Origin: Candidatus Saccharimonadales bacterium
GTDB taxonomy: Bacteria; Patescibacteriota; Saccharimonadia; Saccharimonadales; UBA7683
Assembly (NCBI GenBank): GCA_046350615.1
Contig: JAXMAA010000001.1
Span: 72,480 to 136,479, forward strand
Length of the DNA: 64,000 nt
Direction of reading: 5' to 3'
Part shown: piece after piece, positions 13,523 to 60,413 of the stretch
How positions within the stretch are numbered: position 1 is the first letter of the stretch
How the letters are laid out: every line of letters starts with the position of its first letter
Translations under genes and position numbers: made by a program
Notes under the pieces: model-generated
Databases searched by the model: none
Told to the model about the DNA's origin: nothing
The model's input: the letters and a program-made list of their open reading frames with translations, nothing else

Positions 13523-13673
13523 CGTATCAGTTTCCTTTCAATTGGGAAATGTGAATATACGGGAAGTAACGGTCCCAACCGAGGTAAGCTCCTCAGCCAG
13601 AAGGACTTGCGCCCTCCCATATATACCGATGTGCTCTGGTACAACTACATATATGGAATGACCAAATCGATTA

Positions 13674-13697
13674 CGTGACATAATAAAAAATGTCACG
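13674..13697 (-). promoter_or_regulatory. palindromic operator-like site CGTGACAT-N8-ATGTCACG overlapping the predicted transcription start
   Basis: It is a perfect 8-bp inverted repeat separated by an 8-nt A/T spacer. It begins 6 nt downstream of the -10 box at 13704-13709. Confidence 0.45.
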
Positions 13698-13703
13698 CCT
13701 ATA

Positions 13704-13732
13704 ATTATAGCAAAAATGATCTACTTTGTCAA
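13704..13732 (-). promoter_or_regulatory. perfect-consensus sigma-70 promoter (TTGACA-17-TATAAT with TGC extension) facing the high-GC gene
   Basis: The minus strand reads TTGACAaagtagatcatttttgcTATAAT, with the -35 at 13727-13732 and the -10 at 13704-13709. Confidence 0.7.
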
Positions 13733-13937
13733 TACTCTAACCCTGTTGAGTAAATGAGGTGCTAAAAAATACTGCGACCACAATAATATCCTCTAGAGGC
13801 CGAGAAAATGACGAGTTATAAAGCAAAGCAGTTACACGAGTTTATCTGAATTTACAGATGTAACTCTAATGGTGTCCTCACTCCGTCTTACAACGATTTG
13901 CTGGAAGGTGCGATCAGCTTTAACTGACCATAAAAAC

Positions 13938-13966
13938 ATTATAGAGCATACTCTACTGTATGTCAA
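13938..13966 (-). promoter_or_regulatory. second perfect-consensus sigma-70 promoter (TTGACA-17-TATAAT), just outside the IS30 end
   Basis: The minus strand reads TTGACAtacagtagagtatgctcTATAAT, with the -35 at 13961-13966 and the -10 at 13938-13943. I see no convincing ORF before the next promoter. Confidence 0.6.
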
Positions 13967-13988
13967 GAGATCTATCCTTGAAACAGGG

Positions 13989-20688: not shown

Positions 20689-22677
20689 CTACTTCCAGAG
20701 TTGGAAATTTTTAGTAATTTCTTTGAGCTCATCTGATTTTCCGAACAACGCCAGTGCCCAGAAATCAACATCTTCAATAGCAGTTTTCTTGAGTAGTTCC
20801 ATCTCCTCTTTTGAAGAGCCGATGGTCATAGTTTCGACAAAGGCGTTGTTAGGTAAACTAAGTTTCTGGGCCTTTTTGTAAGCTTTTAGCAGCTCTTTGG
20901 AGTTCGCTGCTTTAAAAATAATGGCCGGATGATGTGCGATGATTACATCAAGCTCACCAGTTTTGTCTTGATATTCAAGAAAATCAAATCGACCGGGGTT
21001 ATGCATTGTACCCACCAGGCCCGCAACCGCATGATTGGCGGCGTTAATAAGCCTGCCGGTTTCAACGCCTTCTTTAAGAATTACCACCATCTGATAGGCT
21101 AGGCGATGCTCTTCGCTCATAAGCTCACTTGTTGGCGAAAGCGTATTTGGCCGGCGAGTGCTACCATGGCTTAACTGAACCTCTGGATAGATAGCTTTGG
21201 TAACCTCGTCAATCTCAGCTCTGAGCTGCGGGAATGGCACCCCTTCGCGTGCTGTTACACCTTCAAAAATCCAAAACACTCTTTCGGAAAAACCAAGTCC
21301 ACATGCAGGTGGCATACCGTATTCAAGCATTTCCACGTAGTCGATATCGAGCATTTGCGCCTCATCATCACCAGCATCGCGCATTTTTTGCTGTTCCAAG
21401 AAACGATTAAGCTGATCAACCGGGTCATTCAGCTCACTCCAACCGTTACATAGTTCGCTACCGCCAATGACTGCCTGAAATCGCTGCACAAAATGAGGGT
21501 TAGTATCATCCGCTTTACTGAGGGGAGAAATAAATGTTGGTGTGTTAATAAGCCAGACTGGACCAGCCACGGTTGCACGAACCCTCTTCCAGAGCTTATC
21601 AATACCGCGCGAAATATTCTCAGTTTTTTCTACTTCGAGCCCGTGCTTCTTCAGTGCGGCCTTCACTTCGTCGATTGTGCAGTCGAACACCTCGATACCG
21701 TAATGTTCGCGAATAACGGTCGCATAATCCCATCGCTCCCACGGTTTGCTCATATCAATTTCTTGGCCGTCGAGAGTAAACTGCAGAGTACCGAATGCTT
21801 CTTGCAGCACTTTTTTGAACATCTCCTCCATGAATACCATGCCATCTTGCCAGTCTGCATATGCCCAGTACCATTCCATTGCAATATGCTCCGGTAAATG
21901 TTCATCCGAGTAGTTCTCGTTTCGAAAACGTGGACCAATATCAAAGACTTTTTCATACCCAGCGCCAATCAAGCGCTTTAAGGGTAGCTCGTGTGAAATA
22001 CGAAGGTAAAAATCTTGATTCAAAGCGTCCATGTGCGTTACAAATGGATTCGCATCGGCGCCGCCGGTAGTATGCTCCAGCACTGGAATATTAATTTCCG
22101 TAAAATCATTGTTCAGAAGAAAATCGCGTGTTGCCTGCCAAAACTTTGAGCGTCGAATGAATCGTTGGCGAACATCTTCATTGACGTTCATGTCCACGTA
22201 GCGCCGACGCATGCGCTCCTCTTTATTCGTAAAGCCGTCTTGTGCTGTGGGCATTGGTCGAAGCGATTTAGTCAAAAGCCGCAAATTCTGCACATCAATT
22301 GAAATCTCACCAGTTTTGCTTTTTATAATTGGTCCTGTTGCCTCAATAAAATCACCTCCATCCAGAAGATTGAGATGCTCAAGTCCAATAAAGCCGGCCT
22401 GAGGATTTGTGGGCCGCACTCCGCCATCTTTCAAGAAGAGCTGTACCTGCCCTGATGCATCCTTCAAAACTATGAAGGCAAGTTTGCCAAACTTACGAAT
22501 GCCGATAATTCTGCCTGCAACCGTCGCTATTTGGTCTTCTAAGACATCAAACTTAGCAATAACGTCACCCATCATATGGGTTCGGTTCGATTTTGCGGGG
22601 TACGGGTTAAGGCCCAGCTTTTTTAGCTCTCCCAGTTTTCTTAGGCGCTCATCGCGCAGTTCTTTCAAGTTCGCCAT
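20689..22677 (-). CDS. lysS: lysine--tRNA ligase (class II) with a ~145-aa C-terminal DUF2000/PTH2-like extension
   Basis: The N-terminus has the OB anticodon-binding domain (VAGRIIGIRKFGKLAFIVLKDASGQVQLF) and the class II core (FRNE, GGSELCNGWSELNDP, GLGFSERV). About 145 extra residues follow. Confidence 0.9.
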   Translation of the reverse strand: MANLKELRDERLRKLGELKKLGLNPYPAKSNRTHMMGDVIAKFDVLEDQIATVAGRIIGIRKFGKLAFIVLKDASGQVQLFLKDGGVRPTNPQAGFIGLEHLNLLDGGDFIEATGPIIKSKTGEISIDVQNLRLLTKSLRPMPTAQDGFTNKEERMRRRYVDMNVNEDVRQRFIRRSKFWQATRDFLLNNDFTEINIPVLEHTTGGADANPFVTHMDALNQDFYLRISHELPLKRLIGAGYEKVFDIGPRFRNENYSDEHLPEHIAMEWYWAYADWQDGMVFMEEMFKKVLQEAFGTLQFTLDGQEIDMSKPWERWDYATVIREHYGIEVFDCTIDEVKAALKKHGLEVEKTENISRGIDKLWKRVRATVAGPVWLINTPTFISPLSKADDTNPHFVQRFQAVIGGSELCNGWSELNDPVDQLNRFLEQQKMRDAGDDEAQMLDIDYVEMLEYGMPPACGLGFSERVFWIFEGVTAREGVPFPQLRAEIDEVTKAIYPEVQLSHGSTRRPNTLSPTSELMSEEHRLAYQMVVILKEGVETGRLINAANHAVAGLVGTMHNPGRFDFLEYQDKTGELDVIIAHHPAIIFKAANSKELLKAYKKAQKLSLPNNAFVETMTIGSSKEEMELLKKTAIEDVDFWALALFGKSDELKEITKNFQLWK

Positions 22678-35758: not shown

Positions 35759-36004
35759 TTAAAAATCACGATACGTTTGATCATCTCGCTTGGCAATAGA
35801 TTTTATTTCACAAATCCCATCAGGCCTTTTGAGATAAATCAACCTGATTTCGCCAATCCTAACTCTAAAACAGTCTTTATTACCTTTGAGCTTTTTTATA
35901 TCAAGCCCGGCCGTGTTACCTTGTCGAATTTGAGCTATAATTGCAAAAATTTTGAGATTAGTCTTTAAGGGAAGTCTGCGGAGTGCTTTTTCGTTCTTGT
36001 TCAT
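35759..36004 (-). CDS. type II toxin, RelE/ParE superfamily
   Basis: The 81-aa protein carries KLKGNKDCFRVRIGEIRLIYLKRPDGICEIKSIAKRDDQTY, which matches the RelE/ParE pattern (yRlRvGdyRviY...i..I.hR...Y). Confidence 0.75.
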   Translation of the reverse strand: MNKNEKALRRLPLKTNLKIFAIIAQIRQGNTAGLDIKKLKGNKDCFRVRIGEIRLIYLKRPDGICEIKSIAKRDDQTYRDF

Positions 36005-36266
36005 CTATGACCTTTTGCAGGAGCGTCATAAATGTTTCAGCTGGCATACCGCCACTTGGCAGATTACTAAAATCTGCCACAGTTTGCCAGTTTTCGCTCA
36101 CTGGATCGCCCCATTCATCCAGTTTCGCTTTTCTGATTTTTTCCAACAAAGCCTGACGAATAATATCACTTCTGGAAGTGTAATCACGCTTCGCCAAGGC
36201 ATCCACTCTCTTGAGCAGTCCTTTTGGCAACGTAATATTAACCGTCTGACTTTGTGTACTTTTCAT
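35958..36266 (-). CDS. ribbon-helix-helix (CopG-type) antitoxin
   Basis: The RHH motif is VNITLPKGLLKRVDALAKRDYTSRSDIIRQALLEKI. It lies directly upstream of the toxin and overlaps it. Confidence 0.75.
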   Translation of the reverse strand: MKSTQSQTVNITLPKGLLKRVDALAKRDYTSRSDIIRQALLEKIRKAKLDEWGDPVSENWQTVADFSNLPSGGMPAETFMTLLQKVIDEQERKSTPQTSLKD

Positions 36267-39363: not shown

Positions 39364-39392
39364 TTGACTTTCTTATACAAGCATGCTACTAT
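39364..39392 (+). promoter_or_regulatory. strong sigma-70 promoter TTGACT-17-TACTAT (TGC-extended)
   Basis: The sequence is TTGACTttcttatacaagcatgcTACTAT. It is followed by a UUCG-tetraloop hairpin, TTGGCttcgGCCAA, at 39407-39420. Confidence 0.65.
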
Positions 39393-39427
39393 TTAGTCAA
39401 GCTCAATTGGCTTCGGCCAACAGAGTA

Positions 39428-39599
39428 AAGAAGGAGGGCGAGTTGATCTCGCTAACTTGTGCTCATTCGTATGAATTCGAGCACAGCAGCTCGAAGATCC
39501 TTGTCGAGGTAGATCTCGAATCAAATATATTCATATTCTGAAGATCCCTACGCTAGCCACCCTCCTTCTTAACAACCAAACTAATACGCAAGGTGGCTA
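39428..39599 (+). promoter_or_regulatory. structured leader with mutually exclusive SD/anti-SD pairings upstream of the T4CP-like gene
   Basis: AAGAAGGAGGG (39428-39438) is the exact complement of CCCTCCTTCTT (39560-39570). TAGCCACC (39554-39561) is the exact complement of GGTGGCTA (39592-39599), which contains the SD of the 39604 gene. Confidence 0.5.
39443..39541 (+). CDS. 32-codon leader sORF (MISLTCAHSYEFEHSSSKILVEVDLESNIFIF)
   Basis: It is not in the track because it is under 60 aa. It starts at TTG, 5 nt after a strong AAGGAGGG SD, and ends in TGA at 39539-39541. Confidence 0.35.
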   Translation: MISLTCAHSYEFEHSSSKILVEVDLESNIFIF

Positions 39600-39603
39600 C
39601 GGC

Positions 39604-42291
39604 GTGACAATATTTTTGATCTTACTTCTAACATTGCTTGCTACGGGAGCAATATTTTTTATTTTCAACCTCTTTTTAGACACAAAAAAGAAACATGCGT
39701 GGTTTAATGCCATGGAATCGAAGGTGCTACTTATAGAAATACCTCGCACAAACGATAAAAAAGAGCTTTCGGCCGAACACATGTTTGCAAGCTTGCACGG
39801 TATTTTAAAAAACAAACGCGAGCTAAAAGCGCATCAAGAATATCAAGAACATATCGGGTTTGAGATTGTCAGTATCGGTAATAAAATTCAGTTTTATATC
39901 TGGACACCGGCTATGCTTACCTCTTTTGTGGAAGGGCAAGTATATGCTCAATATCCCGAGGCTCAGATTAAACAAATTGATCCGGAAGATGATTATGTTC
40001 ACCAAATACCCGAAGGCCACTACCGTCAAGTAGTCGAGATCGGCTTAACCGAAAATGAGACTCTGCCAATTAAAACATTCCTCAGCTTTGAGGTGGATCC
40101 ACTCGCCGCCATTACGGCAACACTTACCAAGCTCGAGGCAGAAAACGAGATGCTTGGTATTCAAATTCTGGCCAGACCTGTTGATGATACATGGCACAAA
40201 AATTCAGCCAAAAAAGCAGAGTTAATTAAAAATGGCGGTGGTTCATCAATCTCAAGACATGGCTGGCTTGCGCAAACCACAGGCGCACTTTGGAAGCCAC
40301 CGGAAGAAACCACCACTGCGACAAAATCTGAAATTTCAGAACGTGACAAAACTCGCATTACAGCTATTGAAGAAAAAAGCCGCAAACTTGGCTATCAAGT
40401 TAAAATCCGGGTTATTTATAGTAGTCCGCCCGAGGTACAACTCAGCTCAAGAATGAAGATTCAAGCACTACTAGGGGCATTTAAGCAGTTTAATACCACC
40501 AATTTGAACGGCTTTAAACAAACCACCAGCAAGCTAGAAGATTTTGATAAATATAAAGCTCGTAGTTTCTTCGATAAAGGTTTTATACTTAATATCGAAG
40601 AGCTCGCTAGCGTGTACCACCTCCCCCACAGCAACGTAGCCACCCCCGGAATCGTCTGGGCACGTGCACGAACCGGCGAGCCACCATCAAACTTACCTAT
40701 CTATACGCCGGGTTCGGTTGATATCAGCCCTATCGGCGTTACAACATTCCGAGGTGATTATCAGTACTTTGGCCTTACCCGTCGCGATCGTGGCCGTCAC
40801 GTATATATTATTGGTCAAACTGGCGTTGGTAAAAGTGGTCTACTAGAGCTTATGACGTCGGCAGATATTACCACCAATCAAGGATTTGCGCTGATTGACC
40901 CGCATGGTGATTTTGCCATCAATACCCTCCAACGAATTGCCCCAGAACGAATTAAAGACGTTATCTATTTCAATCCGGCCGATACCGAATTCCCCATTGG
41001 TTTTAATCCACTTGAGGTACAGAACGAATCGCAAAAAACACTGGTAGCTTCAGAAATCATCGGTTCGCTCAAGAAAATGTTTGATAGCTGGGGGCCACGC
41101 CTCGAATACATTTTGCGCTACACCATCCTCTCTTTGCTAGAATACCCCAACACAACCATGCTTGATATCACTCGCCTGCTGACCGATAACAAGTTTCAGA
41201 AAGAGGTCGTGAGCCGAGTGACCGACCCTGTTGTTCGCAACTTTTGGGATAAAGAGTACGCCAGCTGGAACGAAAAATTTAGAACTGAAGCTGTTGCGCC
41301 AATTTTAAATAAAGTCGGCGCCTTCACTGCAAATCCTATCATTCGCAATATCGTTGGCCAGCCAACCAGTGGCTTTAATGTTCGTCAGGTTATGGATGAA
41401 GGCAAGATCTTGGTTATGAACCTTTCGCGCGGCTTAATTGGCGAGGATAACGCCGCTATTCTTGGCTCCCTGCTAGTTACCAAAGTACAGCTTGCTGCCA
41501 TGAGCCGAGCCGACATTGCAAAAGTTGAAGATCGCCGCCCCTTCTACTTTTATGTTGATGAGTTTCAAAACTTTGCCACCGAATCGTTTGCAACCATCCT
41601 CAGCGAGGCTCGCAAATATGGCCTCAACCTCACCATTGCTAATCAGTATATTTCCCAGATGATACCCGAGGTCAGCGGTGCCGTATTTGGCAACGTGGGA
41701 AGCATTATATCGTTCCGGGTTAGTCCTGAGGACGCAACCTCATTGCAAAAATACTTTGAACCGCAGTTTGAGGCTGCCGACTTAATTCAACTCAATAACC
41801 GCGACTTTCTGGCGAACCTTTCAATCGGGGGTGAAAAAACTGTACCATTTTCAGCCCGAACCATGGATTTGCCCGGATATATAGAGGGTTCAATTGCACA
41901 GATAATAGTACACAACCGTCAACTTTTTGCACACCCTAAGGCTGAGATTGAAGCCTTAATTCGCGGGACAAAAGAACATCCCACAAGCAGTCAACAAAAA
42001 TCAACTCCCACCACGCCACGGGTTTTTGATAGAAATACTGCCACACAGAAGCTTGCCCGTTCCGCTCTGGGTGTTGAGCAACTCACGCATGCTGTTCCCG
42101 AACAAACTGAGTCTGTCGGCGCCATCAACACAAAATCTTCAGATCAAGCGCCCATCGAAAGCACAAAGAAGAAGAAAACTCGCCGTGGCAAACGTGGCGG
42201 CAAGAAAAAAGCCCAAGCACAACCTCCAGAAGGCCCACCCACAGCTCCTAACTCAAACAATAGCGAAGAGACAGTGTATCTCCGGAAGTAA
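39604..42291 (+). CDS. membrane-anchored P-loop ATPase of the VirD4/TraD/TraG (type IV coupling protein-like) family, 895 aa
   Basis: It has an N-terminal TM (IFLILLLTLLATGAIFFIFNLFL), Walker A HVYIIGQTGVGKSGLLELM followed by IDPHGDF, Walker B FYFYVDEFQNFAT, the segment LTIANQYISQM, and a basic low-complexity tail KKKKTRRGKRGGKKK. Confidence 0.7.
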   Translation: MTIFLILLLTLLATGAIFFIFNLFLDTKKKHAWFNAMESKVLLIEIPRTNDKKELSAEHMFASLHGILKNKRELKAHQEYQEHIGFEIVSIGNKIQFYIWTPAMLTSFVEGQVYAQYPEAQIKQIDPEDDYVHQIPEGHYRQVVEIGLTENETLPIKTFLSFEVDPLAAITATLTKLEAENEMLGIQILARPVDDTWHKNSAKKAELIKNGGGSSISRHGWLAQTTGALWKPPEETTTATKSEISERDKTRITAIEEKSRKLGYQVKIRVIYSSPPEVQLSSRMKIQALLGAFKQFNTTNLNGFKQTTSKLEDFDKYKARSFFDKGFILNIEELASVYHLPHSNVATPGIVWARARTGEPPSNLPIYTPGSVDISPIGVTTFRGDYQYFGLTRRDRGRHVYIIGQTGVGKSGLLELMTSADITTNQGFALIDPHGDFAINTLQRIAPERIKDVIYFNPADTEFPIGFNPLEVQNESQKTLVASEIIGSLKKMFDSWGPRLEYILRYTILSLLEYPNTTMLDITRLLTDNKFQKEVVSRVTDPVVRNFWDKEYASWNEKFRTEAVAPILNKVGAFTANPIIRNIVGQPTSGFNVRQVMDEGKILVMNLSRGLIGEDNAAILGSLLVTKVQLAAMSRADIAKVEDRRPFYFYVDEFQNFATESFATILSEARKYGLNLTIANQYISQMIPEVSGAVFGNVGSIISFRVSPEDATSLQKYFEPQFEAADLIQLNNRDFLANLSIGGEKTVPFSARTMDLPGYIEGSIAQIIVHNRQLFAHPKAEIEALIRGTKEHPTSSQQKSTPTTPRVFDRNTATQKLARSALGVEQLTHAVPEQTESVGAINTKSSDQAPIESTKKKKTRRGKRGGKKKAQAQPPEGPPTAPNSNNSEETVYLRK

Positions 42292-42547: not shown

Positions 42548-42916
42548 ATGAAGAAAGATCTGCACCCAACAGATTACCGCCTGGTTGTGTTCCAGGATAC
42601 ATCAAGTAATTTTAAAATTTTGACCCGCTCTACCGCTGCCTCAAACGAGACTATCAAGTGGGAAGACGGCAACGAATATCCGCTCATTAAAGTACACGTT
42701 TCAAGCGCCTCTCACCCATTCTTCACCGGTGAAGAAAAAGTTCTCGACATCGAAGGCCGCGTCGACAAGTTCAAAGCCCGCGCTGAAGCTGCCGCGAAAG
42801 CCAGAGAAGAAAAGCAAGCAAAAATCGCAACTGCCAAAGAAACTGAAAAGAAACCAGCAAAGAAAACTGCTGAGAAAGAAGAAACAACCGAAGTCGAAAC
42901 TAGTTCACAGGAATGA
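42548..42916 (+). CDS. rpmE: 50S ribosomal protein L31 (type B, no CxxC) with a Lys/Glu/Ala-rich C-terminal extension
   Basis: The protein reads [17 protein letters not shown]...[24 protein letters not shown], followed by ~45 charged residues. I prefer the ATG at 42548, which is preceded by GAAGG. Confidence 0.9.
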
Positions 42917-44161
42917 GCTACTTCTTTGCTGCTGGTAATCCCAGTTTTGAATTACCGTTGGCCTAATTGTTTGGAGCCACTCTTCTGCACTTGCGCGCTG
43001 CAAATCTTCGAGGCGTTGGAGTGCAGCCTTTGCCATTTCATCTACCTCATATGGACTAAGGTATTGAAAGTAATTATCTTGCATATTCATTAAAGTATAA
43101 CCGGAAAGCGATTGATCAAAATGGCGTCTCTGGTCTTCTAAAGTATACCAGCAAGCAAAGCCAGTCTTACCAACTAATCGCTCCGACTCATCGAGACCAT
43201 AGCCCGTTCTCATTTTGAGGCTCTTCACAGTGCCATCTTCGTCAAATTCAAATTTTGGCGTTTGGCGTATATTATCCGCTTCTTCGTATTGCTTTAGAAT
43301 ATTCGCCACAGTTGCCTCATCGTAAACTTGTGCGGTTAGAAAGCCAGCGAATTCTTGCATTTGATCAGCCGAAGCAAATCGCATAACAAAATCTTCTCCA
43401 TAAACCACGAAGTTGGCAATTTTATCAGAGCTACTTTTTAGAACGCACGTTTTACCATTAAGCCTGACGTATTTTATGTCCCCGTTTTCAACCCCAACTA
43501 CATCAGTTTCACGAACTGAGTCTTTATTTTTTATTTCAACAACCGGTAGTTTAAGTCTATTAGCGTGAGCCCTAATAATGTTTGCCAGAGATTCATCAAA
43601 TGGTTTACCATCTGAGTTCACTTTTATGAAAAAGCCTTGTAGCTCGAGATTACCAGACTCAGTTGACCCAAGACCCACAACTTCGTTATAAGTATTTTCA
43701 CTTGACGCCGCTAGCAACTGATCTGGATCAAACTTTACATATCGCTCTGATTGTTTTCGCAACATATCTATATCACCACCATGTGTACCGACATCCCGCG
43801 AATGCGTTAAAATGACGTTATCTTCTGGCGCCGTTACAATCAACCCCGCATTTCCCCACGTACCGGTATGATCTTGATCTATTAATGACATAGACACTGC
43901 GACTCGATCACCTACTCTTTCCGGGTTGTCTATTAAAGATACAGTTTGGTCGCCAGGTTGCTCATCAGCACTCCCATAAATTCCTTCCTGGCTAAAACTC
44001 AACGCGGAAGCAAAAACCATCCTCTGACCTATGGGATTAATTGCGTGCACCAGATAACGGTAACTCTGTGGATTATGTTGCTCAGGCTCAGTCACATTAC
44101 CCCATAACTCAGTTCGAGGGGCTAAATGGTTTGGATTTTGAAGTGGAATATCTGCGCTCAT
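42905..44161 (-). CDS. hypothetical soluble protein (418 aa)
   Basis: It is a long clean ORF with a near-consensus promoter directly upstream. No family is recognised. Confidence 0.65.
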
Positions 44162-44283: not shown

Positions 44284-45336
44284 ATGGAAGCAGAACAGAA
44301 ATTACGAACTGAATTTGCCGAACTTACTGAAGCTCTGAGTGCGCCGGATGCGTTTTCTGACCCTAAAATCGGTGAGAAGAATCGGCGGCGAGCGGAGCTT
44401 GAGGAAATTGTAACTGCATTTGACGAAAAGCACTCGTTTGAAGCGCAGCTCGAGCAGGCAAGCGAACTGCTACGCGGTAACGATAACGAGCTTTCTGAAC
44501 TTGCAAAACTTGAAATTCCCGAACTGGAAGCAAAGATTGCCGCAAATGAAGAAAAGCTTACCGAACTTCTTACGCCGAAAGATCCGAATGATCATAAAAA
44601 CTGTGTGATTGAAATTCGAGCCGGTGCAGGTGGTGACGAGGCTGGTCTATTTGTGGCAGAGCTACTCAGAATGTATCTACGTTACTGCGAAACTCACAAC
44701 TTAAAAACCGAGATTATGAGTGAAAACACTAACGATGCTGGCGGCTACAAAGAAGTTATCTTCATGGTTCGCGGTGAAGATGCTTACAAACAATTGAAGT
44801 TTGAAGGTGGTGTTCATCGTGTGCAGCGTGTGCCAGCTACTGAAAGCCAAGGCCGCATTCATACCTCAACTGTTACCGTTGCTGTTATGCCCGAAGCCGA
44901 AGAGACTGACATCGATATTAAAGAGGCTGATTTAAAAATTGATACTTACCGCGCCTCTGGCCACGGCGGTCAAAGCGTGAACACCACTGATTCAGCCGTA
45001 CGTATCACTCACCTGCCCTCTGGTATTGTAGTGACTAATCAGGATGAAAAATCTCAAATTAAAAATAAACTTAAGGCTATGAGCGTGCTTCGTTCTCGGC
45101 TACTCCAAAAGCAAATTGATGAGGAAAATGCCAAGCTTTCAGCTCAACGCAAATCACTTATTGGCTCTGGGGATAGATCAGAGAAAATCCGTACTTATAA
45201 CTTTCCGCAAGATCGCATTACCGACCACCGGGTCAATTACTCCCGCTCAAGCATTCCACAAGCCATGAACGGCGATATTGATGATATCATCGCCAAACTC
45301 CAGTCGTACGAGAACCAACTCTTAAGGGAAGCTTAG
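44284..45336 (+). CDS. prfA: peptide chain release factor 1
   Basis: It has the PxT tripeptide (RVQRVPATESQGRIHTS) and GGQ (SGHGGQSVNTTDSAVRITHLPS). The ATG at 44284 lies 7 nt after a TATACT box. Confidence 0.95.
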   Translation: MEAEQKLRTEFAELTEALSAPDAFSDPKIGEKNRRRAELEEIVTAFDEKHSFEAQLEQASELLRGNDNELSELAKLEIPELEAKIAANEEKLTELLTPKDPNDHKNCVIEIRAGAGGDEAGLFVAELLRMYLRYCETHNLKTEIMSENTNDAGGYKEVIFMVRGEDAYKQLKFEGGVHRVQRVPATESQGRIHTSTVTVAVMPEAEETDIDIKEADLKIDTYRASGHGGQSVNTTDSAVRITHLPSGIVVTNQDEKSQIKNKLKAMSVLRSRLLQKQIDEENAKLSAQRKSLIGSGDRSEKIRTYNFPQDRITDHRVNYSRSSIPQAMNGDIDDIIAKLQSYENQLLREA

Positions 45337-46325
45337 GCCGCATTGTTGAGGCTTTGCATGACAGGTTCTGTGGCATCCGCGACGACAGGGCCAAGCCTAC
45401 CCCCCACATAGCCTTTGATCGTATCTTCAGCAACACTCTTGGCAACACCGACAAATGGTCGTTTTTTCCCTTCTAAATCAAAGAGGTCGCTAATGTGGCG
45501 TTTTGTCACCTCACCAATGATCTGTGCTATCTCATGCAGATTCAGGTTGTAATCCTTTGAGCGCTCAACAACTGCCAAGGCAATCTCTTCATGTAAAGAT
45601 TTTATGTCATCGGAAGCTTTTAGACGATACAATGAGTCCGCCCTTTGTTCTGATGCCAGCTCAAATCCTAGACTCTTCTCATCATCACGTATTTCTCGGA
45701 GATAGCCCTCATCCTCTTCTTCCATAAATCGCTCCCCGAACTTTGCTCCCACACCCTTAACGAGCTTACCGACTGGCTCAGATAAAGTCTTCTTTGCAAT
45801 CCCAGCCGCAATGGTTACTCCTAGACCCAATCCAGCGGCATGAGATTGGTCAATTTGTGATATACCAACATCAAAGCCCTTAACAGTTGCTATCGATGCA
45901 GAAGTAATCAATGCGAACATCGCCGCTCGTCCCAGCAAGCGTCCACAACGCGTCACACGCGCCTTTTCTACGGCCTCGCGGATATCTGAAGACTCGCCCA
46001 CTCGCTCATCAACTCCGGCATATATATCATAGAGGTAGTGTTTACTCTCTTCGATAGCCCCCTGAAGTATGCTAAGCTCCCCTGCCCCGGCTTGTTCGAG
46101 CTCCTGAAGACTAACTACCATTCTGTCTGCAAGTAATGTAACGAAATCCTCAGTTAATGCGCGCGCTTGAGTCCTTTCCGAATCAGTAGCCATGCCTGTT
46201 CTAAGCTCGAATAGTGCGGCCGCTAACCTGGCTGTTGCTTCGGTTAATAACGGCTTTTCAAGGCCACCGCTCTCCTGTGGGGGTGCGCCTGAACTACTTT
46301 CCAGTATTTGAGGGGTTTCTGTCAT
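45333..46325 (-). CDS. hypothetical protein (330 aa) with two central hydrophobic segments
   Basis: I prefer the start at MTETPQ (46325), the first ATG after the promoter at 46357-46385. The hydrophobic segments are AAMFALITSASIATV and AAGLGLGVTIAAGIA. Confidence 0.6.
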   Translation of the reverse strand: MTETPQILESSSGAPPQESGGLEKPLLTEATARLAAALFELRTGMATDSERTQARALTEDFVTLLADRMVVSLQELEQAGAGELSILQGAIEESKHYLYDIYAGVDERVGESSDIREAVEKARVTRCGRLLGRAAMFALITSASIATVKGFDVGISQIDQSHAAGLGLGVTIAAGIAKKTLSEPVGKLVKGVGAKFGERFMEEEDEGYLREIRDDEKSLGFELASEQRADSLYRLKASDDIKSLHEEIALAVVERSKDYNLNLHEIAQIIGEVTKRHISDLFDLEGKKRPFVGVAKSVAEDTIKGYVGGRLGPVVADATEPVMQSLNNAA

Positions 46326-46356
46326 GTTATTTGTTTGTTTTACATTTAACTCATAA

Positions 46357-46385
46357 ATAATAGCAAAATTACATGATTTTGTCAA
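46357..46385 (-). promoter_or_regulatory. promoter TTGACA-17-TATTAT (TGC-extended) for the 330-aa hypothetical gene
   Basis: The minus strand reads TTGACAaaatcatgtaattttgcTATTAT. Confidence 0.6.
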
Positions 46386-46441
46386 TATGTATATTTTATT
46401 GCATGGATATTTATTATTTCTCCTGTTATACTCTATTGTCA

Positions 46442-47230
46442 ATGGATACCATCATCGCCAGTTTAGCTAATCCGAAGATTAAATGGGTAAAAGGCCTGCA
46501 TAAAAACAGTAGCCGTCGAAAAGAGGGTGTATTCTTAGTTGAGGGCGCAAAAGAGATTGCCAGCGCTTTAAGTGGCGGTTATATACCGCGACATGTCTTT
46601 GTCTGCCCGGAGATTTATGCCGAGGAACTAGTACTGAAGGGGGTAGCCCCTCGGATTCACACAGTCAATAGAGAGGTCTTTCAAAAAATTACTTACAGGG
46701 GTAGTTCTGATGGAATTCTGGCTATATTTGATGCCACACAAAAAACACTTGATGACCTAGAGCTTGGAAATACACCTTCATTTATTATCGTCGAAGGAAT
46801 TGAAAAACCGGGAAATCTTGGCGCAATCATTCGAAGCGCTGACGGTGCAGATATTGATGCAGTTATTGTCTGTAACTCAACCTGCGACATATTCAATCCA
46901 AATGTCATCCGAGCTAGTCTTGGAACGGTATTCACGAAACAGGTTGTAACAGCAAGTAATGAACAGGTGTCCGACTTCCTCGCTAAACACGAAATTACCA
47001 CTTACTCTGCATTGCTTTCGGAAAGATCCTCTGCATATACTGCAGTAGATTTTACGATACCTACGGCCATTGTTCTTGGCACCGAACACGATGGCCTAAG
47101 CGAATTCTGGCAACAACGAAGTATTCCAGTAGTTATTCCAATGCGCGGAAGTAATGACTCCCTCAATGTAAGTAACGCAGCAGCGATCCTTGCTTACGAG
47201 ATAGTCAGACAACGAGACCTACTCACATGA
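46442..47230 (+). CDS. TrmH/SpoU family RNA 2'-O-methyltransferase (RlmB-like)
   Basis: Supporting motifs are EGIEKPGNLGAIIRSADGADIDAVIV, LGTEHDGLS and IPMRGSNDSLNVSNAAAILAYE. Confidence 0.88.
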   Translation: MDTIIASLANPKIKWVKGLHKNSSRRKEGVFLVEGAKEIASALSGGYIPRHVFVCPEIYAEELVLKGVAPRIHTVNREVFQKITYRGSSDGILAIFDATQKTLDDLELGNTPSFIIVEGIEKPGNLGAIIRSADGADIDAVIVCNSTCDIFNPNVIRASLGTVFTKQVVTASNEQVSDFLAKHEITTYSALLSERSSAYTAVDFTIPTAIVLGTEHDGLSEFWQQRSIPVVIPMRGSNDSLNVSNAAAILAYEIVRQRDLLT

Positions 47231-57044: not shown

Positions 57045-60000
57045 TTATGATCCGGCTTTTTTGAGAGAAATTACAAGCTCTTCGCCCTCAACCTTCACGG
57101 CCATCGCAAAACCATCACCTACCTCACCTGCCTCATTTGCGAGAGTTTCAGCTTTGATGGTTTCAAGATGTTCTTCAATAGCAGTCTGTAGTTGGCCATT
57201 CTCGGTTGCTAGTTGCAGAGTTATGCGATCATCAACGTTCAGGCCAGCAGCCTTGCGTACACTTTGCACATGGCGGACCACTTCACGCATAAGACCTTCG
57301 CGTCTGAGTTCTGGCGTGATTTTTTCATCGATTGCTACTTCTTTGCCAGTCCTTACTGCTTTTACATTCAACTCATCGAGTAAGATTGGTTCAAAATCGA
57401 CATGTTCTCCCAAGCTTAGCACTGTTACGCTCGCCAGCGGCTGTCGCACTTTAAGCTGTGCCTTAGCACGAAGACTGAGACCTTCATTAACATACTCGCG
57501 AACCGTGTCCATATCATCCATCACTAATTGATTAATATGGCCGACCGACAACCAATCCTTAAGGTGGATCGATTCGCCGTCGCCTGTGAGGTTTTGATAC
57601 AGCTCCTCTGCCAGAAATGGTGTAAATGGCGCAAGAAGATAGGCCAAGCGAACCAAAACATAATGGAGCGTTTTATAGGCATCGGCTTTGTCGCCATCAT
57701 CTTCTGACTTCCCACCTTCGCCAGAGGCTACGGTGGACTGACGCCAGAAACGGCGGCGTGAACGGCGCACATACCAGTTAGAGGCATCGTCAAGAAACGG
57801 CAGAATTGGCGCAATGGCATCTGGTAAATTGTACTCGTCCATATGTTTTTCCACCTCAGCCACTAGTTGATGAAGCCTTGAAACTACCCAGATATCAAGC
57901 GGGTTCTTGAGATCTTCAACCGGATCACTTAAGACTCCGTCATACTCCCAGCCATCAACTTCGGCATACATCGTGAAGAAATCGTACATGTTCCAGATCA
58001 TGGCGAGTTTGCGCGAAACATCACTAACATCTTTATCTTGCAGGCTAAAATCTTCAGCATTCATCACCGGAGAACCGAGCAAAAGCAATCGTTCAGCATC
58101 AGCAGAATATTTATCCATCACTTCATTCGGATCGGTATAGTTACCGCGTGATTTACTAAGCTTATAGCCATCGTTACCCATCAAATTACCAGTAACAATG
58201 ACGTTTTTAAATGGTGCCTGGCCAAACAAGCCGACGTTGACCGCCTGCAAATAGTAGAACCACGCCCGCACCTGCCCCACGTATTCCACGATGAAATCGC
58301 CCGGGAAGTTAGCCTCAAACTTCTCTTTGTTCTCAAACGGGTAATGGAACTGGGCAAAGGGCATTGAGCCGCTCTCGAACCAACCATCCAGCACCTTCTC
58401 GATTCGTTTGTAGTGTACACCGTCTTTTTCAAACTCGACTGCATCGATCCACGGCCGGTGATAGTCTTCCAGCCGTTTGCCGCTGAGTTCTTCCAGTTCA
58501 TCGTAACTACCCACTACAATTTGATGTTTCTTGCCTTCTTTATCAATACCTTCCCAGACCGGCATAGCCGTTGCCCAGAAGCGGTCGCGTGAGAGGTTCC
58601 AATCTGGTGCAGCCAAGATGTTTTTTTCAAATCGTCCGTGTTTTACATGTTTCGGGAACCAATTAATTACCTCAGTATTTTGCGCCAACATTTCCTCTCG
58701 CTGGCCATCAATATTCATAAACCAGCTTGGGTGAGCTCGGTACATAAGACGTGTTCCACAGCGATGACAGTGAGGGTAACTGTGCCTGTAGTAATCAATC
58801 TTCCAAACAACCCCATCTTCGTGCAGCTTTTTAGCAATTGGCTTGTTAGCCTCCCAAACATTTTCGCCTTTCCAATCGCTCTCAGTATACAAACCGTTTT
58901 CATCAATGACATGCACTACTGGGATCTTGAGTTTCTGTGCCAATACAAAATCTTCTTCACCATAGGCGGGCGCGAGATGCACAATACCCGAGCCTTCTTC
59001 AGCACTAAGATCAGGATATTCCCAAACTTTATGTGCATTTTCGCCGCGATCTACTCCAAGAAGTGGCTCGTATTCAAGGCCAATGAGTTCTTTGCCCTTA
59101 ATATCATCACGAGTAATTTTGTATTCAAGCTGCTGATGTTTTTCATCAGTCAAAACCTTCTCGACTAAATCTTTATGCAAAATTAAATGCTCGCCTTCAG
59201 CCGTTTCAACTTCAGCGTAGGCTTCATTTTTACCAACTCCAACCGCAGTATTAGCCGGAAGTGTCCACGGAGTGGTTGTCCAGGCTAGGAGATGAGAATC
59301 GTGCACACCACTCTGTGTCTTTTTATCATAGTCTAGATTACGGTTTTCAAGAAAAATTCTGCTGCATAGAGATCCCCTGTCAGCAGCATCTTTTAAGATT
59401 GCAGGATCTTTTGACCATTGGAGATTTGCGTAATGCGTACTACCGCCTTGAAGCTTAACTTCACCCGTAAATTTCGTTATTTTATACTCACTAAGCTCTA
59501 GATCATAACCAATCCTAGAGATTTCTTTTTTACCCTCAAATTCAACTTGCTCAACGTCTATTCCTAACTTTTCTTTTGCGCCACGCTTTACCGCCTCTTC
59601 AAGCGTTTCCCCACCTCTAAGTGAAGCAGCAGCTAGACCCCAGACGTTCGGTAGGCTGTCGTCGTCCGCAAGCCTTTTCACAAAAGTAAACTCACCTGCC
59701 TCATTCTCAATATAGTAAGCAACTGCTTGTTTCTTAGTTCGCTTTAGTTTGAATTTTACGTACACACTTGGGTCGGTTACATCTTGGTATGCACCCGGAT
59801 CCATGGTAACTTCGGCTTTAGAAAGCGGTGTGGCGTCGCGTGTGCAGTACATCAGTACCCGCTCGCCTTCGTAGATTTTGCCCTTCTCAAACAATGTTTT
59901 GAAGGCCCACCAAATGCTTTCCATATATTCTTTATCCATGGTTTTATAAGCGCCCTTAAAGTCAACCCAGCGGCCAATTCTATCTACGTAATCTTCCCAC

Positions 60001-60413
60001 AAGCTACCGGTTTGCACCATGTTGTCTCGAGCCGTTGTGATGTAATCTTCAAGGCTGATTTTAGTACCGATATCCCGGCGATCTTTAATACCCAACTTCT
60101 TCTCAGTAAAAACTTCTGCCGGCAAGCCGTGACAATCCCAACCCCAAACACGCTCCACCCGCTTACCTTTCATAGTCTGATAGCGAGGAATTGTATCTTT
60201 AACGATTGAGCTCAGAAGCGTTCCGTGATGTGGCACGCCCGTAATAAAAGGAGGGCCATCATAAAATACAAAGGCGTTATCAGCCGACCGATTCTCAACC
60301 GACTTTTCAAACGTCTTATCTTTCTTCCATTTTTCCACCCAAAACTTTTCATACTCCAACGCCCGCCTTCGTGTTCCATGCTTAAACTTCATCGTTTTCT
60401 CCTTTGTTTGCAA
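57045..60413 (-). CDS. ileS: isoleucine--tRNA ligase (type 2) with a ~150-aa Nudix-like insertion before the CP1 editing domain
   Basis: Supporting motifs are HIGH (PFITGVPHHGTLL), WTTTPWTLPANTAV (editing domain) and KMSKS (YKLSKSRGN). Met8 (60392) is an alternative start. Confidence 0.95.
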   Translation of the reverse strand: MQTKEKTMKFKHGTRRRALEYEKFWVEKWKKDKTFEKSVENRSADNAFVFYDGPPFITGVPHHGTLLSSIVKDTIPRYQTMKGKRVERVWGWDCHGLPAEVFTEKKLGIKDRRDIGTKISLEDYITTARDNMVQTGSLWEDYVDRIGRWVDFKGAYKTMDKEYMESIWWAFKTLFEKGKIYEGERVLMYCTRDATPLSKAEVTMDPGAYQDVTDPSVYVKFKLKRTKKQAVAYYIENEAGEFTFVKRLADDDSLPNVWGLAAASLRGGETLEEAVKRGAKEKLGIDVEQVEFEGKKEISRIGYDLELSEYKITKFTGEVKLQGGSTHYANLQWSKDPAILKDAADRGSLCSRIFLENRNLDYDKKTQSGVHDSHLLAWTTTPWTLPANTAVGVGKNEAYAEVETAEGEHLILHKDLVEKVLTDEKHQQLEYKITRDDIKGKELIGLEYEPLLGVDRGENAHKVWEYPDLSAEEGSGIVHLAPAYGEEDFVLAQKLKIPVVHVIDENGLYTESDWKGENVWEANKPIAKKLHEDGVVWKIDYYRHSYPHCHRCGTRLMYRAHPSWFMNIDGQREEMLAQNTEVINWFPKHVKHGRFEKNILAAPDWNLSRDRFWATAMPVWEGIDKEGKKHQIVVGSYDELEELSGKRLEDYHRPWIDAVEFEKDGVHYKRIEKVLDGWFESGSMPFAQFHYPFENKEKFEANFPGDFIVEYVGQVRAWFYYLQAVNVGLFGQAPFKNVIVTGNLMGNDGYKLSKSRGNYTDPNEVMDKYSADAERLLLLGSPVMNAEDFSLQDKDVSDVSRKLAMIWNMYDFFTMYAEVDGWEYDGVLSDPVEDLKNPLDIWVVSRLHQLVAEVEKHMDEYNLPDAIAPILPFLDDASNWYVRRSRRRFWRQSTVASGEGGKSEDDGDKADAYKTLHYVLVRLAYLLAPFTPFLAEELYQNLTGDGESIHLKDWLSVGHINQLVMDDMDTVREYVNEGLSLRAKAQLKVRQPLASVTVLSLGEHVDFEPILLDELNVKAVRTGKEVAIDEKITPELRREGLMREVVRHVQSVRKAAGLNVDDRITLQLATENGQLQTAIEEHLETIKAETLANEAGEVGDGFAMAVKVEGEELVISLKKAGS

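What the first reader, a model, noticed from the sequence alone, without database searches (positions are those of the whole stretch)
39604..42291. Orphan VirD4/TraD-like ATPase with a ~370-aa unknown N-terminal domain and a poly-basic tail
Seen: an 895-aa protein has one N-terminal TM and a ~370-aa region with no motif I recognise. This is followed by a P-loop NTPase with coupling-protein-like signatures (GQTGVGKSG, IDPHGDF, VDEFQNF, ANQYISQM) and a C-terminal KKKKTRRGKRGGKKK tract. No VirB-type, relaxase or pilus genes lie nearby; the neighbours are a small transporter and rpmE.
Established: T4CP/FtsK/HerA-clade ATPases move DNA or proteins across membranes and normally sit in conjugation or T4SS loci.
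Inference: this is a stand-alone substrate-translocating ATPase, possibly part of DNA uptake or export or of effector delivery in an epibiotic lifestyle. Its elaborate leader control (see the previous finding) suggests costly or conditional expression.
Basis: partly seen in the sequence, partly recalled or inferred. Interest (0 to 1): 0.55.

Follow-up and report, generated by a model that had tools for sequence, protein, structure and literature searches.

The report
Orphan coupling-protein ATPase of Saccharibacteria
This gene encodes a membrane-anchored motor protein related to the "coupling" ATPases that feed DNA or proteins into bacterial conjugation machines; it is a conserved chromosomal gene of the tiny parasitic Saccharibacteria, lies far from any secretion genes, is already recorded in databases and papers, and its real job is still unknown.

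Summary

The "unknown" N-terminal region is Pfam DUF8128. An AlphaFold model of it matches only the N-terminal domain of VirB4 (TrwK). The ATPase half is closest to the coupling proteins TrwB, TraD and VirD4.

The same two-domain architecture sits next to relaxase and VirB4 genes on Bacillota, Actinomycetota and haloarchaeal plasmids, so family membership is solid.

In candidate phyla radiation (CPR) bacteria the gene is chromosomal and vertically conserved. None of 73 related loci, and nothing in this 64-kb window, places it beside T4SS genes.

This orphan status is already published (Quinonero-Coronel 2025). The Southlakia ML1 counterpart I take to be the ortholog, SEML1_0293, is non-essential in Tn-seq.

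I found no prior description of:
- the VirB4-like fold of the N-terminal domain;
- a conserved C-terminal motif, acidic-x-φ-x-L-R, in 107 of 120 homologs;
- a basic tail where plasmid homologs have acidic ones;
- a two-paralog operon in Berkelbacteria.

The most likely role is an accessory, trans-encoded coupling or energising ATPase of the chromosomal T4SS. This is inferred, not shown. Interest is moderate to low.

The parts
39364..39392 (+). Promoter-like site (TTGACT, 17-nt spacer, TG-TACTAT) upstream of the gene
   Evidence: Consensus scan. The number of sites in the region is no higher than in shuffles, so this is weak evidence.
39398..39603 (+). Roughly 200-nt structured 5' leader. The predicted fold pairs GCCACC (39556-39561) with the Shine-Dalgarno GGTGGC (39592-39597).
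Evidence: RNA fold energy -65.9 kcal/mol, z = -3.09, with 0 of 200 shuffles folding as well. Sequence patches are conserved in the 82%-identical ortholog locus L008. No Rfam match.
39604..42291 (+). CDS of the DUF8128-type T4CP-like ATPase, 895 aa, GTG start
   Evidence: identical to P0001.
39607..39678 (+). Single N-terminal transmembrane helix (aa 2-25), followed by DTKKKH. I infer an N-out/C-in topology, which puts the rest of the protein in the cytoplasm.
   Evidence: Sequence and AF2 helix 2-36. The topology rests on the positive-inside rule and is an inference.
39712..40719 (+). DUF8128 domain (aa ~37-372), made of repeated beta-alpha-beta units with a VirB4-NTD-like fold
   Evidence: PF26449 in the precomputed annotation. 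AF2 model with pLDDT 78. The top 13 Foldseek hits are all TrwK/VirB4, E = 1.6e-6. 2,179 cluster representatives match at E <= 1e-3.
40675..40698 (+). GEPPSNLP motif at the end of DUF8128. Stand-alone DUF8128 proteins terminate at this point.
   Evidence: E359, P360 and P361 are invariant. Stand-alone proteins of about 414-432 aa end in ...EPPxxLP...
40756..41973 (+). T4CP-type nucleotide-binding domain (aa ~385-790). Walker A is at 40813-40839, Walker B at 41542-41574, and an all-alpha insert spans aa ~475-600 (41026-41403).
   Evidence: Pfam TrwB_AAD_bind aa 395-706, DUF87 and TraG-D_C. TrwB fold match with TMt 0.55-0.59. Motifs invariant. Coordinates.
41977..42288 (+). Disordered C-terminal extension (aa 792-895), net charge +10. 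It contains the polybasic tract (42166-42210) and the terminal motif EETVYLRK (42265-42288).
   Evidence: pLDDT below 50 from aa 792. Tract statistics. The terminal motif [DE][DE]x[VE][ILV]x[LI]R is found in 107 of 120 homologs against 1.5 expected.

Best explanation
The gene encodes the Saccharibacterial member of a CPR-wide, vertically inherited family of membrane-anchored ATPases. The family descends from the coupling proteins (T4CP) of monoderm and archaeal conjugation systems.

Shown:
- One TM helix tethers a cytoplasmic DUF8128 domain, whose model has a VirB4-N-terminal-domain-like fold. This is followed by a TrwB/VirD4-type nucleotide-binding domain with an all-alpha insert and intact Walker motifs.
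- After that comes a disordered basic tail of about 100 aa that ends in a conserved acidic-x-φ-x-L-R peptide.

Inferred:
- Like other T4CPs, it forms a ring-shaped motor at the inner face of the membrane.
- It works in trans with the chromosomal, relaxase-less, MPF-FATA-derived T4SS that Saccharibacteria carry elsewhere in the genome.
- It uses the tail as a docking site for a partner or substrate.
- It is an accessory rather than indispensable energiser or recruiter, probably partly redundant with a second paralog of the same architecture.
For: - Family assignment. TrwB_AAD_bind scores above the Pfam cutoff. TrwB and DotL are the best PDB sequence hits. In the fold search, full-length TrwK/VirB4 comes first (E = 2.5e-12), and TrwB matches the ATPase half with TMt 0.55-0.59.
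- Plasmid relatives. The family HMM matches, across both domains, the proteins at the T4CP position on plasmids (E = 1e-46 to 1e-85). It does not match the VirB4s of the same plasmids.
- Plasmid contexts. Those proteins sit beside Replic_Relax relaxase-type genes and AAA_10 or TraG-P-loop VirB4s.
- T4SS background. The CPR T4SS is MPF-FATA-like, lacks a T4CP in its cluster, and T4CP genes are often encoded away from virB4.
- Co-occurrence. VirB4 is found in 79.6% and T4CP homologs in 96.1% of 3,035 draft genomes. If each gene is independently missed about 20% of the time, about two T4CP genes against one virB4 gives an expected 95.8% (my arithmetic). The counts are therefore compatible with co-occurrence.
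- Selection. Identity is 55-88% across Saccharimonadia and the catalytic motifs are invariant.
- Fitness. Normalised Tn-seq reads for SEML1_0293 fall from 5817 to 2940 to 1372, while the neighbouring genes, comEC and dprA do not decline.
Against: - The T4SS of ML1 is essential, but SEML1_0293 is called non-essential at all three time points, with 87-120 insertions.
- The gene is never next to T4SS genes in the 73 loci examined. Only 148 of 5,713 CPR T4CP homologs lie near virB4.
- Most CPR genomes lack relaxases.
- The C-terminal tail is basic, whereas the plasmid homologs have acidic tails. The partner is therefore probably different.
- In Berkelbacteria two paralogs form their own operon in a housekeeping context. 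This would also fit a self-contained machine.
- There is no direct interaction or localisation evidence.
- The VirB4-NTD likeness rests on Foldseek hits to an AF2 model only. Profile-sequence comparison with TrsD and VirB4 N-terminal domains was negative.
Confidence: 0.5

Rival explanations
1. An exapted, T4SS-independent machine. The two DUF8128 paralogs, possibly with small accessory proteins, form a CPR-specific membrane motor. It would translocate DNA or protein, or remodel a substrate, without the VirB4 system.
For: - Tandem, overlapping paralog genes occur in L079 and L080.
- Berkelbacteria carry an operon of paralog A, a conserved 171-190-aa protein, and paralog B, among ribosomal and secDF genes.
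- Contexts are housekeeping everywhere.
- The family is near-universal in CPR genomes, and the authors of that study raise exaptation.
- The tail charge is inverted relative to conjugative homologs.
Against: - No substrate or channel partner has been identified.
- The gene counts fit co-occurrence with VirB4 once draft incompleteness is allowed for (my arithmetic).
- In Saccharibacteria the two presumed paralogs are not linked (ML1 0142 versus 0293).
- That SEML1_0142 is a DUF8128 paralog is inferred only from its annotation table.
Confidence: 0.25
2. A DNA-uptake motor for natural transformation. It would pull incoming ssDNA through ComEC, acting as a functional analogue of ComFA.
For: - T4CPs are DNA-dependent ATPases (established knowledge).
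- The polybasic tail could bind DNA (inference).
- dprA and topA lie upstream in many loci: 35 and 50 of 83 loci respectively.
- The string "ComFA" does not occur in the ML1 annotation tables.
- The gene is non-essential, like comEC and dprA.
Against: - comEC and dprA insertions are neutral or increase over time, whereas insertions in this gene fall about 4.2-fold.
- The dprA-topA linkage is not immediate and is absent from this window.
- The closest characterised relatives export DNA rather than import it.
Confidence: 0.1
3. A chromosome-segregation or division translocase, analogous to FtsK.
For: - The gene lies head-to-head with the dcw cluster (murG, ftsW, mraY, ftsI, mraW) in most Saccharimonadia loci.
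- It belongs to the FtsK/HerA superfamily fold.
Against: - There is no FtsK_SpoIIIE, gamma-domain or 4TM match.
- ML1 has a complete, essential FtsK, SEML1_0096.
- The dcw synteny is lost in this window and in other lineages.
Confidence: 0.05
4. A remnant of an integrated conjugative element, or a defence-associated HerA/mad8-like ATPase.
For: - Distant homologs are plasmid-borne.
- PADLOC gives mad8 at 53 bits and weak HerA hits.
- An IS30-like transposase lies 25 kb away.
Against: - The gene is a single conserved core gene in stable housekeeping synteny across at least 599 species-level genomes.
- Its motifs are intact.
- There is no integrase, relaxase, methyltransferase or other defence partner nearby.
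- The PADLOC hits cover only the generic P-loop region.
Confidence: 0.04

Closest known systems
SEML1_0293 of Candidatus Southlakia epibionticum ML1, and the 5,713 "T4CP homologues" of Patescibacteria (Wang 2023, PMC10633639; Quinonero-Coronel 2025, PMC12102498)
   Same: Same annotation and architecture: PF10412 at aa 402-719 in SEML1_0293 against aa 395-706 here. Both are chromosomal and far from the T4SS. SEML1_0293 has the same sigma70_r4/HARE-HTH, topA and dprA synteny as the 58-62%-identical relatives of the window protein.
   Different: This window lineage has rearranged: the gene now lies between eamA-rpsB-tsf and rpmE-prfA, an arrangement shared only with L008. Orthology to SEML1_0293 is inferred from synteny and architecture. 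I could not align the ML1 sequence directly.
DUF8128-type ATPases at the T4CP position on monoderm and archaeal plasmids (Embleya, Shouchella clausii, Bacillus subtilis, Natrinema)
   Same: Both domains are collinear, with 25-29% identity and HMM E-values of 1e-46 to 1e-85. Fused and split forms both exist.
   Different: The plasmid proteins sit beside Replic_Relax relaxase-type genes, VirB4 (AAA_10), PrgI/TcpC/D/E-like genes and cell-wall hydrolases. Their C-terminal tails are acidic. The CPR protein has no such neighbours, has a basic tail and carries the terminal φ-x-L-R motif.
TrwB / VirD4 / TraD / DotL coupling proteins
   Same: The nucleotide-binding domain with an all-alpha insert, a membrane anchor, and a C-terminal extension used for partner binding in TraD and DotL (the last point is established knowledge).
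   Different: Canonical T4CPs have two TM helices and no DUF8128 domain. NCBIfam T4CP models are far below their cutoffs: 51 bits against 366 for SXT TraD.
VirB4 (TrwK of R388)
   Same: The overall two-domain plan of a roughly 370-aa N-terminal domain plus a RecA-like C-terminal domain. TrwK is the best full-length fold match (E = 2.5e-12) and the only significant match for the N-terminal domain alone. The N-terminal domain can also be a separate gene, as TrsD is for VirB4.
   Different: There is no sequence-level VirB4 signal. TIGR00929 scores 16.9 bits against a cutoff of 643, there is no AAA_10 or CagE hit, and hhalign against TrsD, TrsE and VirB4 N-terminal domains is negative. TM-scores are modest (0.35-0.42).
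FtsK/SpoIIIE
   Same: The same ATPase superfamily and a membrane anchor.
   Different: None of the family's domains is detected. A genuine FtsK coexists with SEML1_0293 in the ML1 genome.

Membership tests
Type IV coupling protein (VirD4/TraD/TraG/TrwB) | P-loop NBD with intact Walker A and B, matching a curated T4CP profile above threshold | tested here: met
   Pfam TrwB_AAD_bind scores 39.1 bits against a cutoff of 20.5. T4SS-DNA_transf scores 21.1 against 20.1, and TraG-D_C scores 24.1 against 22. The motifs are invariant.
Type IV coupling protein (VirD4/TraD/TraG/TrwB) | Reaches an NCBIfam T4CP subfamily or equivalog cutoff | tested here: not met
   SXT_TraD 51 bits against 366, CD1115 33.9 against 250, TOL TraD 32 against 647. 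The protein is a divergent branch rather than a member of a named subfamily.
Type IV coupling protein (VirD4/TraD/TraG/TrwB) | All-alpha domain inserted in the NBD, and a TrwB-like fold | tested here: met
   The AF2 model has helices at aa 475-600 between Walker A and Walker B. Foldseek matches TrwB at E about 1e-8 with TMt 0.55-0.59, and also Cagbeta and DotL.
Type IV coupling protein (VirD4/TraD/TraG/TrwB) | N-terminal membrane anchor | tested here: met
   There is one hydrophobic helix at aa 2-25. Canonical T4CPs have two.
Type IV coupling protein (VirD4/TraD/TraG/TrwB) | Genetic linkage to a relaxase and/or T4SS genes | tested here: not met
   No such gene lies in the 64-kb window or beside the gene in 73 related loci. 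The linkage is met only for distant plasmid homologs.
Type IV coupling protein (VirD4/TraD/TraG/TrwB) | Recruits substrates to a T4SS channel | not testable with these tools
   This needs genetics or biochemistry.
Pfam DUF8128 (PF26449) | Match to the family model in the N-terminal region | tested here: met
   Precomputed Pfam annotation assigns PF26449.1 to the identical protein P0001 and to all 120 listed homologs; the name comes. The model gave no hit in the local Pfam-A scan and appears to be absent from that copy.
VirB4 | VirB4-type N-terminal domain fold | tested here: inconclusive
   In the Foldseek search with the N-terminal model, the top 13 hits are all TrwK/VirB4 (E = 1.6e-6 to 1e-3, probability 1.0, TMq 0.35-0.42), and no P-loop proteins are hit. 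Sequence profiles do not detect the similarity.
VirB4 | C-terminal ATPase matches VirB4 profiles (AAA_10, CagE_TrbE_VirB, TIGR00929) | tested here: not met
   TIGR00929 scores 16.9 bits against a cutoff of 643. There is no Pfam VirB4 family hit. The family HMM does not hit plasmid VirB4s.
FtsK/SpoIIIE | FtsK_SpoIIIE motor domain, gamma domain and 4TM region | tested here: not met
   No hits at E <= 1. The ML1 genome has its own FtsK, SEML1_0096.
HerA / MADS mad8 defence ATPases | Profile match together with the partner genes of the system | tested here: not met
   mad8 at 53 bits and weak HerA hits cover only the P-loop region. No partner genes lie in the window.

The most novel reading that the evidence does not exclude
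DUF8128 ATPases may be a third, previously unrecognised branch of the T4SS ATPase family. They would keep a VirB4-type N-terminal domain on a VirD4-type motor, making them an evolutionary intermediate. In CPR bacteria a pair of such paralogs would have been domesticated into a near-universal, T4SS-independent membrane translocation machine. Its basic tail and terminal φ-x-L-R peptide would engage a still unknown partner.
Probability: 0.15. Interest if true: 0.7.

Novelty: new member of a known kind. Interest (0 to 1): 0.35.

Why it matters
Saccharibacteria depend on a relaxase-less type IV secretion system for growth on their hosts. What that system transports, and which ATPase feeds it, are open questions. 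This gene family is one of the few Patescibacteria-enriched core families with a recognisable motor domain, so it is an obvious candidate.

The details added here give concrete handles for experiments in the genetically tractable strain ML1:
- the VirB4-like N-terminal domain;
- the conserved C-terminal docking-type peptide;
- the basic tail where plasmid homologs have acidic ones;
- the two-paralog operon in Berkelbacteria.

As a discovery, however, the orphan CPR coupling-protein homolog is already annotated, counted and discussed in the literature. The finding is therefore confirmation and refinement, not a surprise.

Tried and rejected
- **Sequence link to VirB4.** I ran hhalign with a 158-sequence DUF8128 profile against TrsD and TrsE of pSK41 and against two plasmid VirB4s. 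The N-terminal region gave no signal; only Walker A matched. My domain extraction also carried some ATPase residues into the profile. The VirB4 likeness is therefore structure-only.
- **Finding the second Saccharibacterial paralog (SEML1_0142 type).** The Berkelbacteria paralog A search returned only non-Saccharibacterial proteins. The divergent representative P0181 turned out to be a rare side branch. Cluster look-up gave no names. That SEML1_0142 shares the architecture rests only on Table S2 of Wang 2023.
- **Extending the view beyond the window.** Exact-product look-ups of edge genes failed three times. The T4SS inventory of this genome could not be made.
- **FtsK replacement.** Rejected, because ML1 has an essential FtsK.
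- **Defence ATPase.** Rejected on context.
- **pLS20.** Its T4CP is a canonical 786-aa protein with two TM helices. The 65-kb B. subtilis plasmid carrying the DUF8128 protein is therefore a different, Tcp-like system.
- **Leader RNA.** No Rfam family matches it.
- **Literature.** "DUF8128" has no hits in the paper library.
Full report
**Observation**

The ORF at 39604-42291 (+, GTG start, 895 aa) is real. [quoted passage not shown]

They are invariant or nearly so in an alignment of 41 homologs. Pfam places TrwB_AAD_bind at aa 395-706 above its gathering score, with weaker DUF87, TraG-D_C and T4SS-DNA_transf hits, and nothing in aa 1-390. NCBIfam gives only far sub-threshold TraD, CD1115, CedD and VirB4 hits.

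The window is a housekeeping stretch of a Saccharibacterial chromosome. It carries IleRS, RNR, SecA, a sigma factor, ProRS, SerRS, prfB, Mur ligase, RRF, PRPP synthetase, tsf, rpsB, rpmE, prfA, prmC, HtrA, LytR, signal peptidase and parAB. It also has one IS30-like transposase and a few ORFs with no family match. A family HMM hits only the target ORF, and VirB4, TrsD and TrsK references hit nothing significant. "Orphan within 64 kb" is therefore confirmed.

**The N-terminal domain**

The precomputed annotation names it PF26449 DUF8128. The model gave no hit in the local Pfam scan and appears to be absent from that copy.

A phmmer search with aa 1-390 against 1.84 billion cluster representatives gives 2,179 hits at E <= 1e-3. 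The hits are either fusions of 800-1,130 aa or stand-alone proteins of about 414-432 aa. The stand-alone proteins stop exactly at the conserved EPPxxLP motif, which is aa 358-365 here.

An AlphaFold2 model of aa 1-390 (pLDDT 78, pTM 0.74) shows a long N-terminal helix followed by repeated beta-alpha-beta units. In a Foldseek search against the PDB, the top 13 hits are all chains of TrwK/VirB4 of R388 (E = 1.6e-6 to 1e-3, probability 1.0, TMq 0.35-0.42). Only weak ferredoxin-like folds follow. No P-loop protein other than VirB4 is hit, so the match must be to the VirB4 N-terminal domain.

The full-length model (pLDDT 75, disordered from aa 792) matches full-length TrwK best (E = 2.5e-12, about 900 aligned columns). 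TrwB comes next, over the ATPase half only (E about 1e-8, TMt 0.55-0.59), followed by Cagbeta, HerA and DotL.

By sequence the ATPase is T4CP-like, not VirB4-like. TrwB scores E = 1.8e-5 and DotL 8e-4 in a profile search of the PDB, and no VirB4 is found. A profile-sequence test against TrsD, TrsE and plasmid VirB4 N-terminal domains was negative. The VirB4-NTD likeness is therefore a structural inference of moderate strength.

**Relatives outside the CPR**

tblastn against 72,556 plasmids finds 549 records: 237 Bacillus, 122 Streptomyces, 31 Staphylococcus, plus haloarchaea and Sulfolobus. The best hits cover aa 28-762 at 25-29% identity. The N-terminal domain alone finds 35 records, mostly haloarchaeal, where it is a separate gene next to a "TraM recognition domain" ATPase.

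- On an Embleya plasmid the order is PrgI-family, XF1762, a VirB4-like ATPase (P-loop_TraG, AAA_10, TraC_F_IV), the DUF8128 ATPase, a Replic_Relax protein and NlpC/P60.
- On a Shouchella clausii plasmid the order is primase, the DUF8128 ATPase, Replic_Relax (PF13814), conjugal transfer proteins and an AAA_10 VirB4 at E = 1e-115.
- A 65-kb B. subtilis plasmid has the DUF8128 protein upstream of TcpC-, TcpD- and TcpE-like genes.

The family HMM matches these proteins across both domains (E = 1e-46 to 1e-85) and does not match the VirB4s of the same plasmids. The architecture is therefore that of the second, coupling-type ATPase of a class of monoderm and archaeal conjugation systems. These plasmid proteins end in acidic tails.

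**Distribution and context in the CPR**

A scan of one genome per GTDB species found at least 599 matches, of which 80 loci were fetched. Almost all are Saccharibacteria at 48-82% identity, with Peregrinibacteria and Gracilibacteria at 39-40%.

I called and clustered ORFs from 83 loci.

- A sigma70_r4 + HARE-HTH gene is present in 55 loci. It is the immediate upstream ORF in 45 of the 73 loci where the target ORF was called.
- topA is present in 50 loci and dprA in 35.
- The dcw cluster (murG, ftsW, mraY, ftsI, mraW) lies downstream on the opposite strand.
- The window's own context (tsf, rpsB | rpmE, prfA) is shared only with L008, the 82%-identical ortholog.
- Other lineages show tilS-ftsH-[gene]-murJ-lepA, or rplI-ruvX-[gene]. 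I recognised these neighbours by eye from the sequences; they were not tool-tested.
- No locus has a T4SS cluster beside the gene.
- L087 shows a split form (424 + 556 aa) in the usual synteny.
- L079 and L080 carry two tandem paralogs with overlapping stop and start codons. The downstream copy is the window type (43-47% identity); the upstream copy is 35% identical and has the same architecture.
- In Berkelbacteria, including the closed genome CP011213.1, the operon is paralog A, a conserved soluble protein of 171-190 aa, then paralog B. It sits among ribosomal-protein genes and secDF.

**The C-terminal extension**

The last 104 aa are predicted disordered and have a net charge of +10.

A tract with at least 8 K/R in 15 residues occurs in 83 of 120 homologs. 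The body of the proteins never exceeds 7 and usually peaks at 6.

In addition, 107 of 120 homologs end in [DE][DE]x[VE][ILV]x[LI]R followed by 0-3 residues. Shuffling the tails gives 1.5 expected. The window protein ends EETVYLRK. I did not find this motif described anywhere. By analogy with TraD-TraM and the DotL adaptors (established knowledge), it looks like a docking peptide.

**What is already known**

Quinonero-Coronel et al. 2025 (PMC12102498) report 5,713 VirD4-type T4CP homologs in 2,918 of 3,035 Patescibacteria genomes. Only 148 lie near virB4, and relaxases are almost absent. They note that the ML1 t4cp is far from virB4 and non-essential, so that "exaptation cannot be ruled out".

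Wang et al. 2023 (PMC10633639) show that the ML1 T4SS (SEML1_0006-0019) is essential and lacks a recognisable coupling protein in its cluster. Their tables list the following.

- SEML1_0293 has PF10412 at aa 402-719 and lies next to the sigma/HARE-HTH gene 0294, topA 0296 and dprA 0298.
- It is flagged as a core, Patescibacteria-enriched family and is called non-essential at all three time points, with 87-120 insertions.
- Its normalised reads fall from 5817 to 2940 to 1372, about 4.2-fold. Neighbouring genes, comEC and dprA stay flat or rise.
- A second protein with a similar layout, SEML1_0142 (P-loop at aa 381-800, N-terminal region unassigned), is essential.
- A genuine FtsK (SEML1_0096) is present and essential.

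I infer orthology of the window gene to SEML1_0293 from architecture and from the synteny of its 58-62%-identical relatives. I did not align the ML1 sequence directly.

**Interpretation**

Membership of the T4CP superfamily, in a distinct DUF8128 sub-architecture, is well supported. I put that at about 0.9.

The function in Saccharibacteria is not established. I favour an accessory, trans-encoded coupling or energising ATPase for the chromosomal MPF-FATA-like T4SS, at about 0.5. The reasons are ancestry, the missing T4CP in the T4SS cluster, a measurable fitness cost of insertions, and gene counts compatible with co-occurrence. On the counts, VirB4 is found in 79.6% of genomes, and two T4CP genes each missed independently at that rate would be seen in 95.8%, against 96.1% observed (my arithmetic).

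The main rival, at about 0.25, is a T4SS-independent machine built from the two paralogs. The Berkelbacteria operon, the invariably housekeeping contexts and the charge-inverted tail all point that way.

A ComEC-linked uptake motor (about 0.1) is weakened by the contrast between neutral comEC and dprA insertions and the declining reads for this gene. An FtsK-like role and a mobile-element or defence remnant are unlikely.

**Verdict**

The entity is already annotated and discussed in the literature, so it is a new member of a known kind. The refinements with real but moderate interest are the VirB4-like N-terminal domain, the terminal motif, the tail charge inversion and the paralog operon.

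Noticed in passing
window 39398-39603: The roughly 200-nt leader of the gene folds significantly better than shuffles (z = -3.1). The fold pairs GCCACC (39556-39561) with the Shine-Dalgarno GGTGGC (39592-39597). An upstream AAGAAGGAGGG (39428-39438) is complementary to CCCTCCTTCTT (39560-39570), which would allow alternative pairings. Sequence patches are conserved in the L008 ortholog. No Rfam family matches.
   Followed up: partly
L001 8889-9920; L003 8879-9928; 55 of 83 related loci: A gene of about 350 aa combining Sigma70 region 4 with a HARE-HTH domain lies immediately upstream of the orthologs on the same strand in most Saccharimonadia. Its ML1 counterpart, SEML1_0294, is essential. It is absent from this position in the window.
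   Followed up: partly
L088 9183-16138; L089 9617-15683; L079 1232-6528; L080 1128-6163: Berkelbacteria-type genomes carry two DUF8128-ATPase paralogs in one apparent operon. In L088 and L089 the paralogs are separated by a conserved soluble protein of 171-190 aa with no family annotation; in L079 and L080 they are directly adjacent, with overlapping stop and start codons.
   Followed up: partly
window 8855-9631 and 9574-11448 (- strand): SecA is split into two overlapping ORFs. The DEAD, PP-binding and P-loop domains are in one ORF and the wing/scaffold domain in the other. This could be a frameshift, an assembly error or a genuine split.
   Followed up: no
window 11768-15040: A 584-aa ORF (11768-13522) with no Pfam or PADLOC match lies in a locally GC-rich segment (57.8% against about 46%). 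It sits next to an IS30-like transposase (14003-15040; HTH_38 + rve). This may be an acquired island.
   Followed up: no
window 57045-60413 and 20689-22677 (- strand): The isoleucyl-tRNA synthetase carries a NUDIX-domain match inside its catalytic domain (aa 228-295). The class II Asp/Lys-type synthetase is fused to a C-terminal DUF2000 domain.
   Followed up: no
window 42905-44161 and 45333-46442 (- strand): Two ORFs of 418 aa and 369 aa flank rpmE/prfA and match no Pfam or PADLOC family. Both lie just downstream of the ATPase gene on the opposite strand.
   Followed up: no
window 35759-36266 (- strand): A small RHH/HicB-like antitoxin-type gene (35958-36266) overlaps an 81-aa ORF (35759-36004). 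This is probably a toxin-antitoxin pair embedded among translation genes.
   Followed up: no
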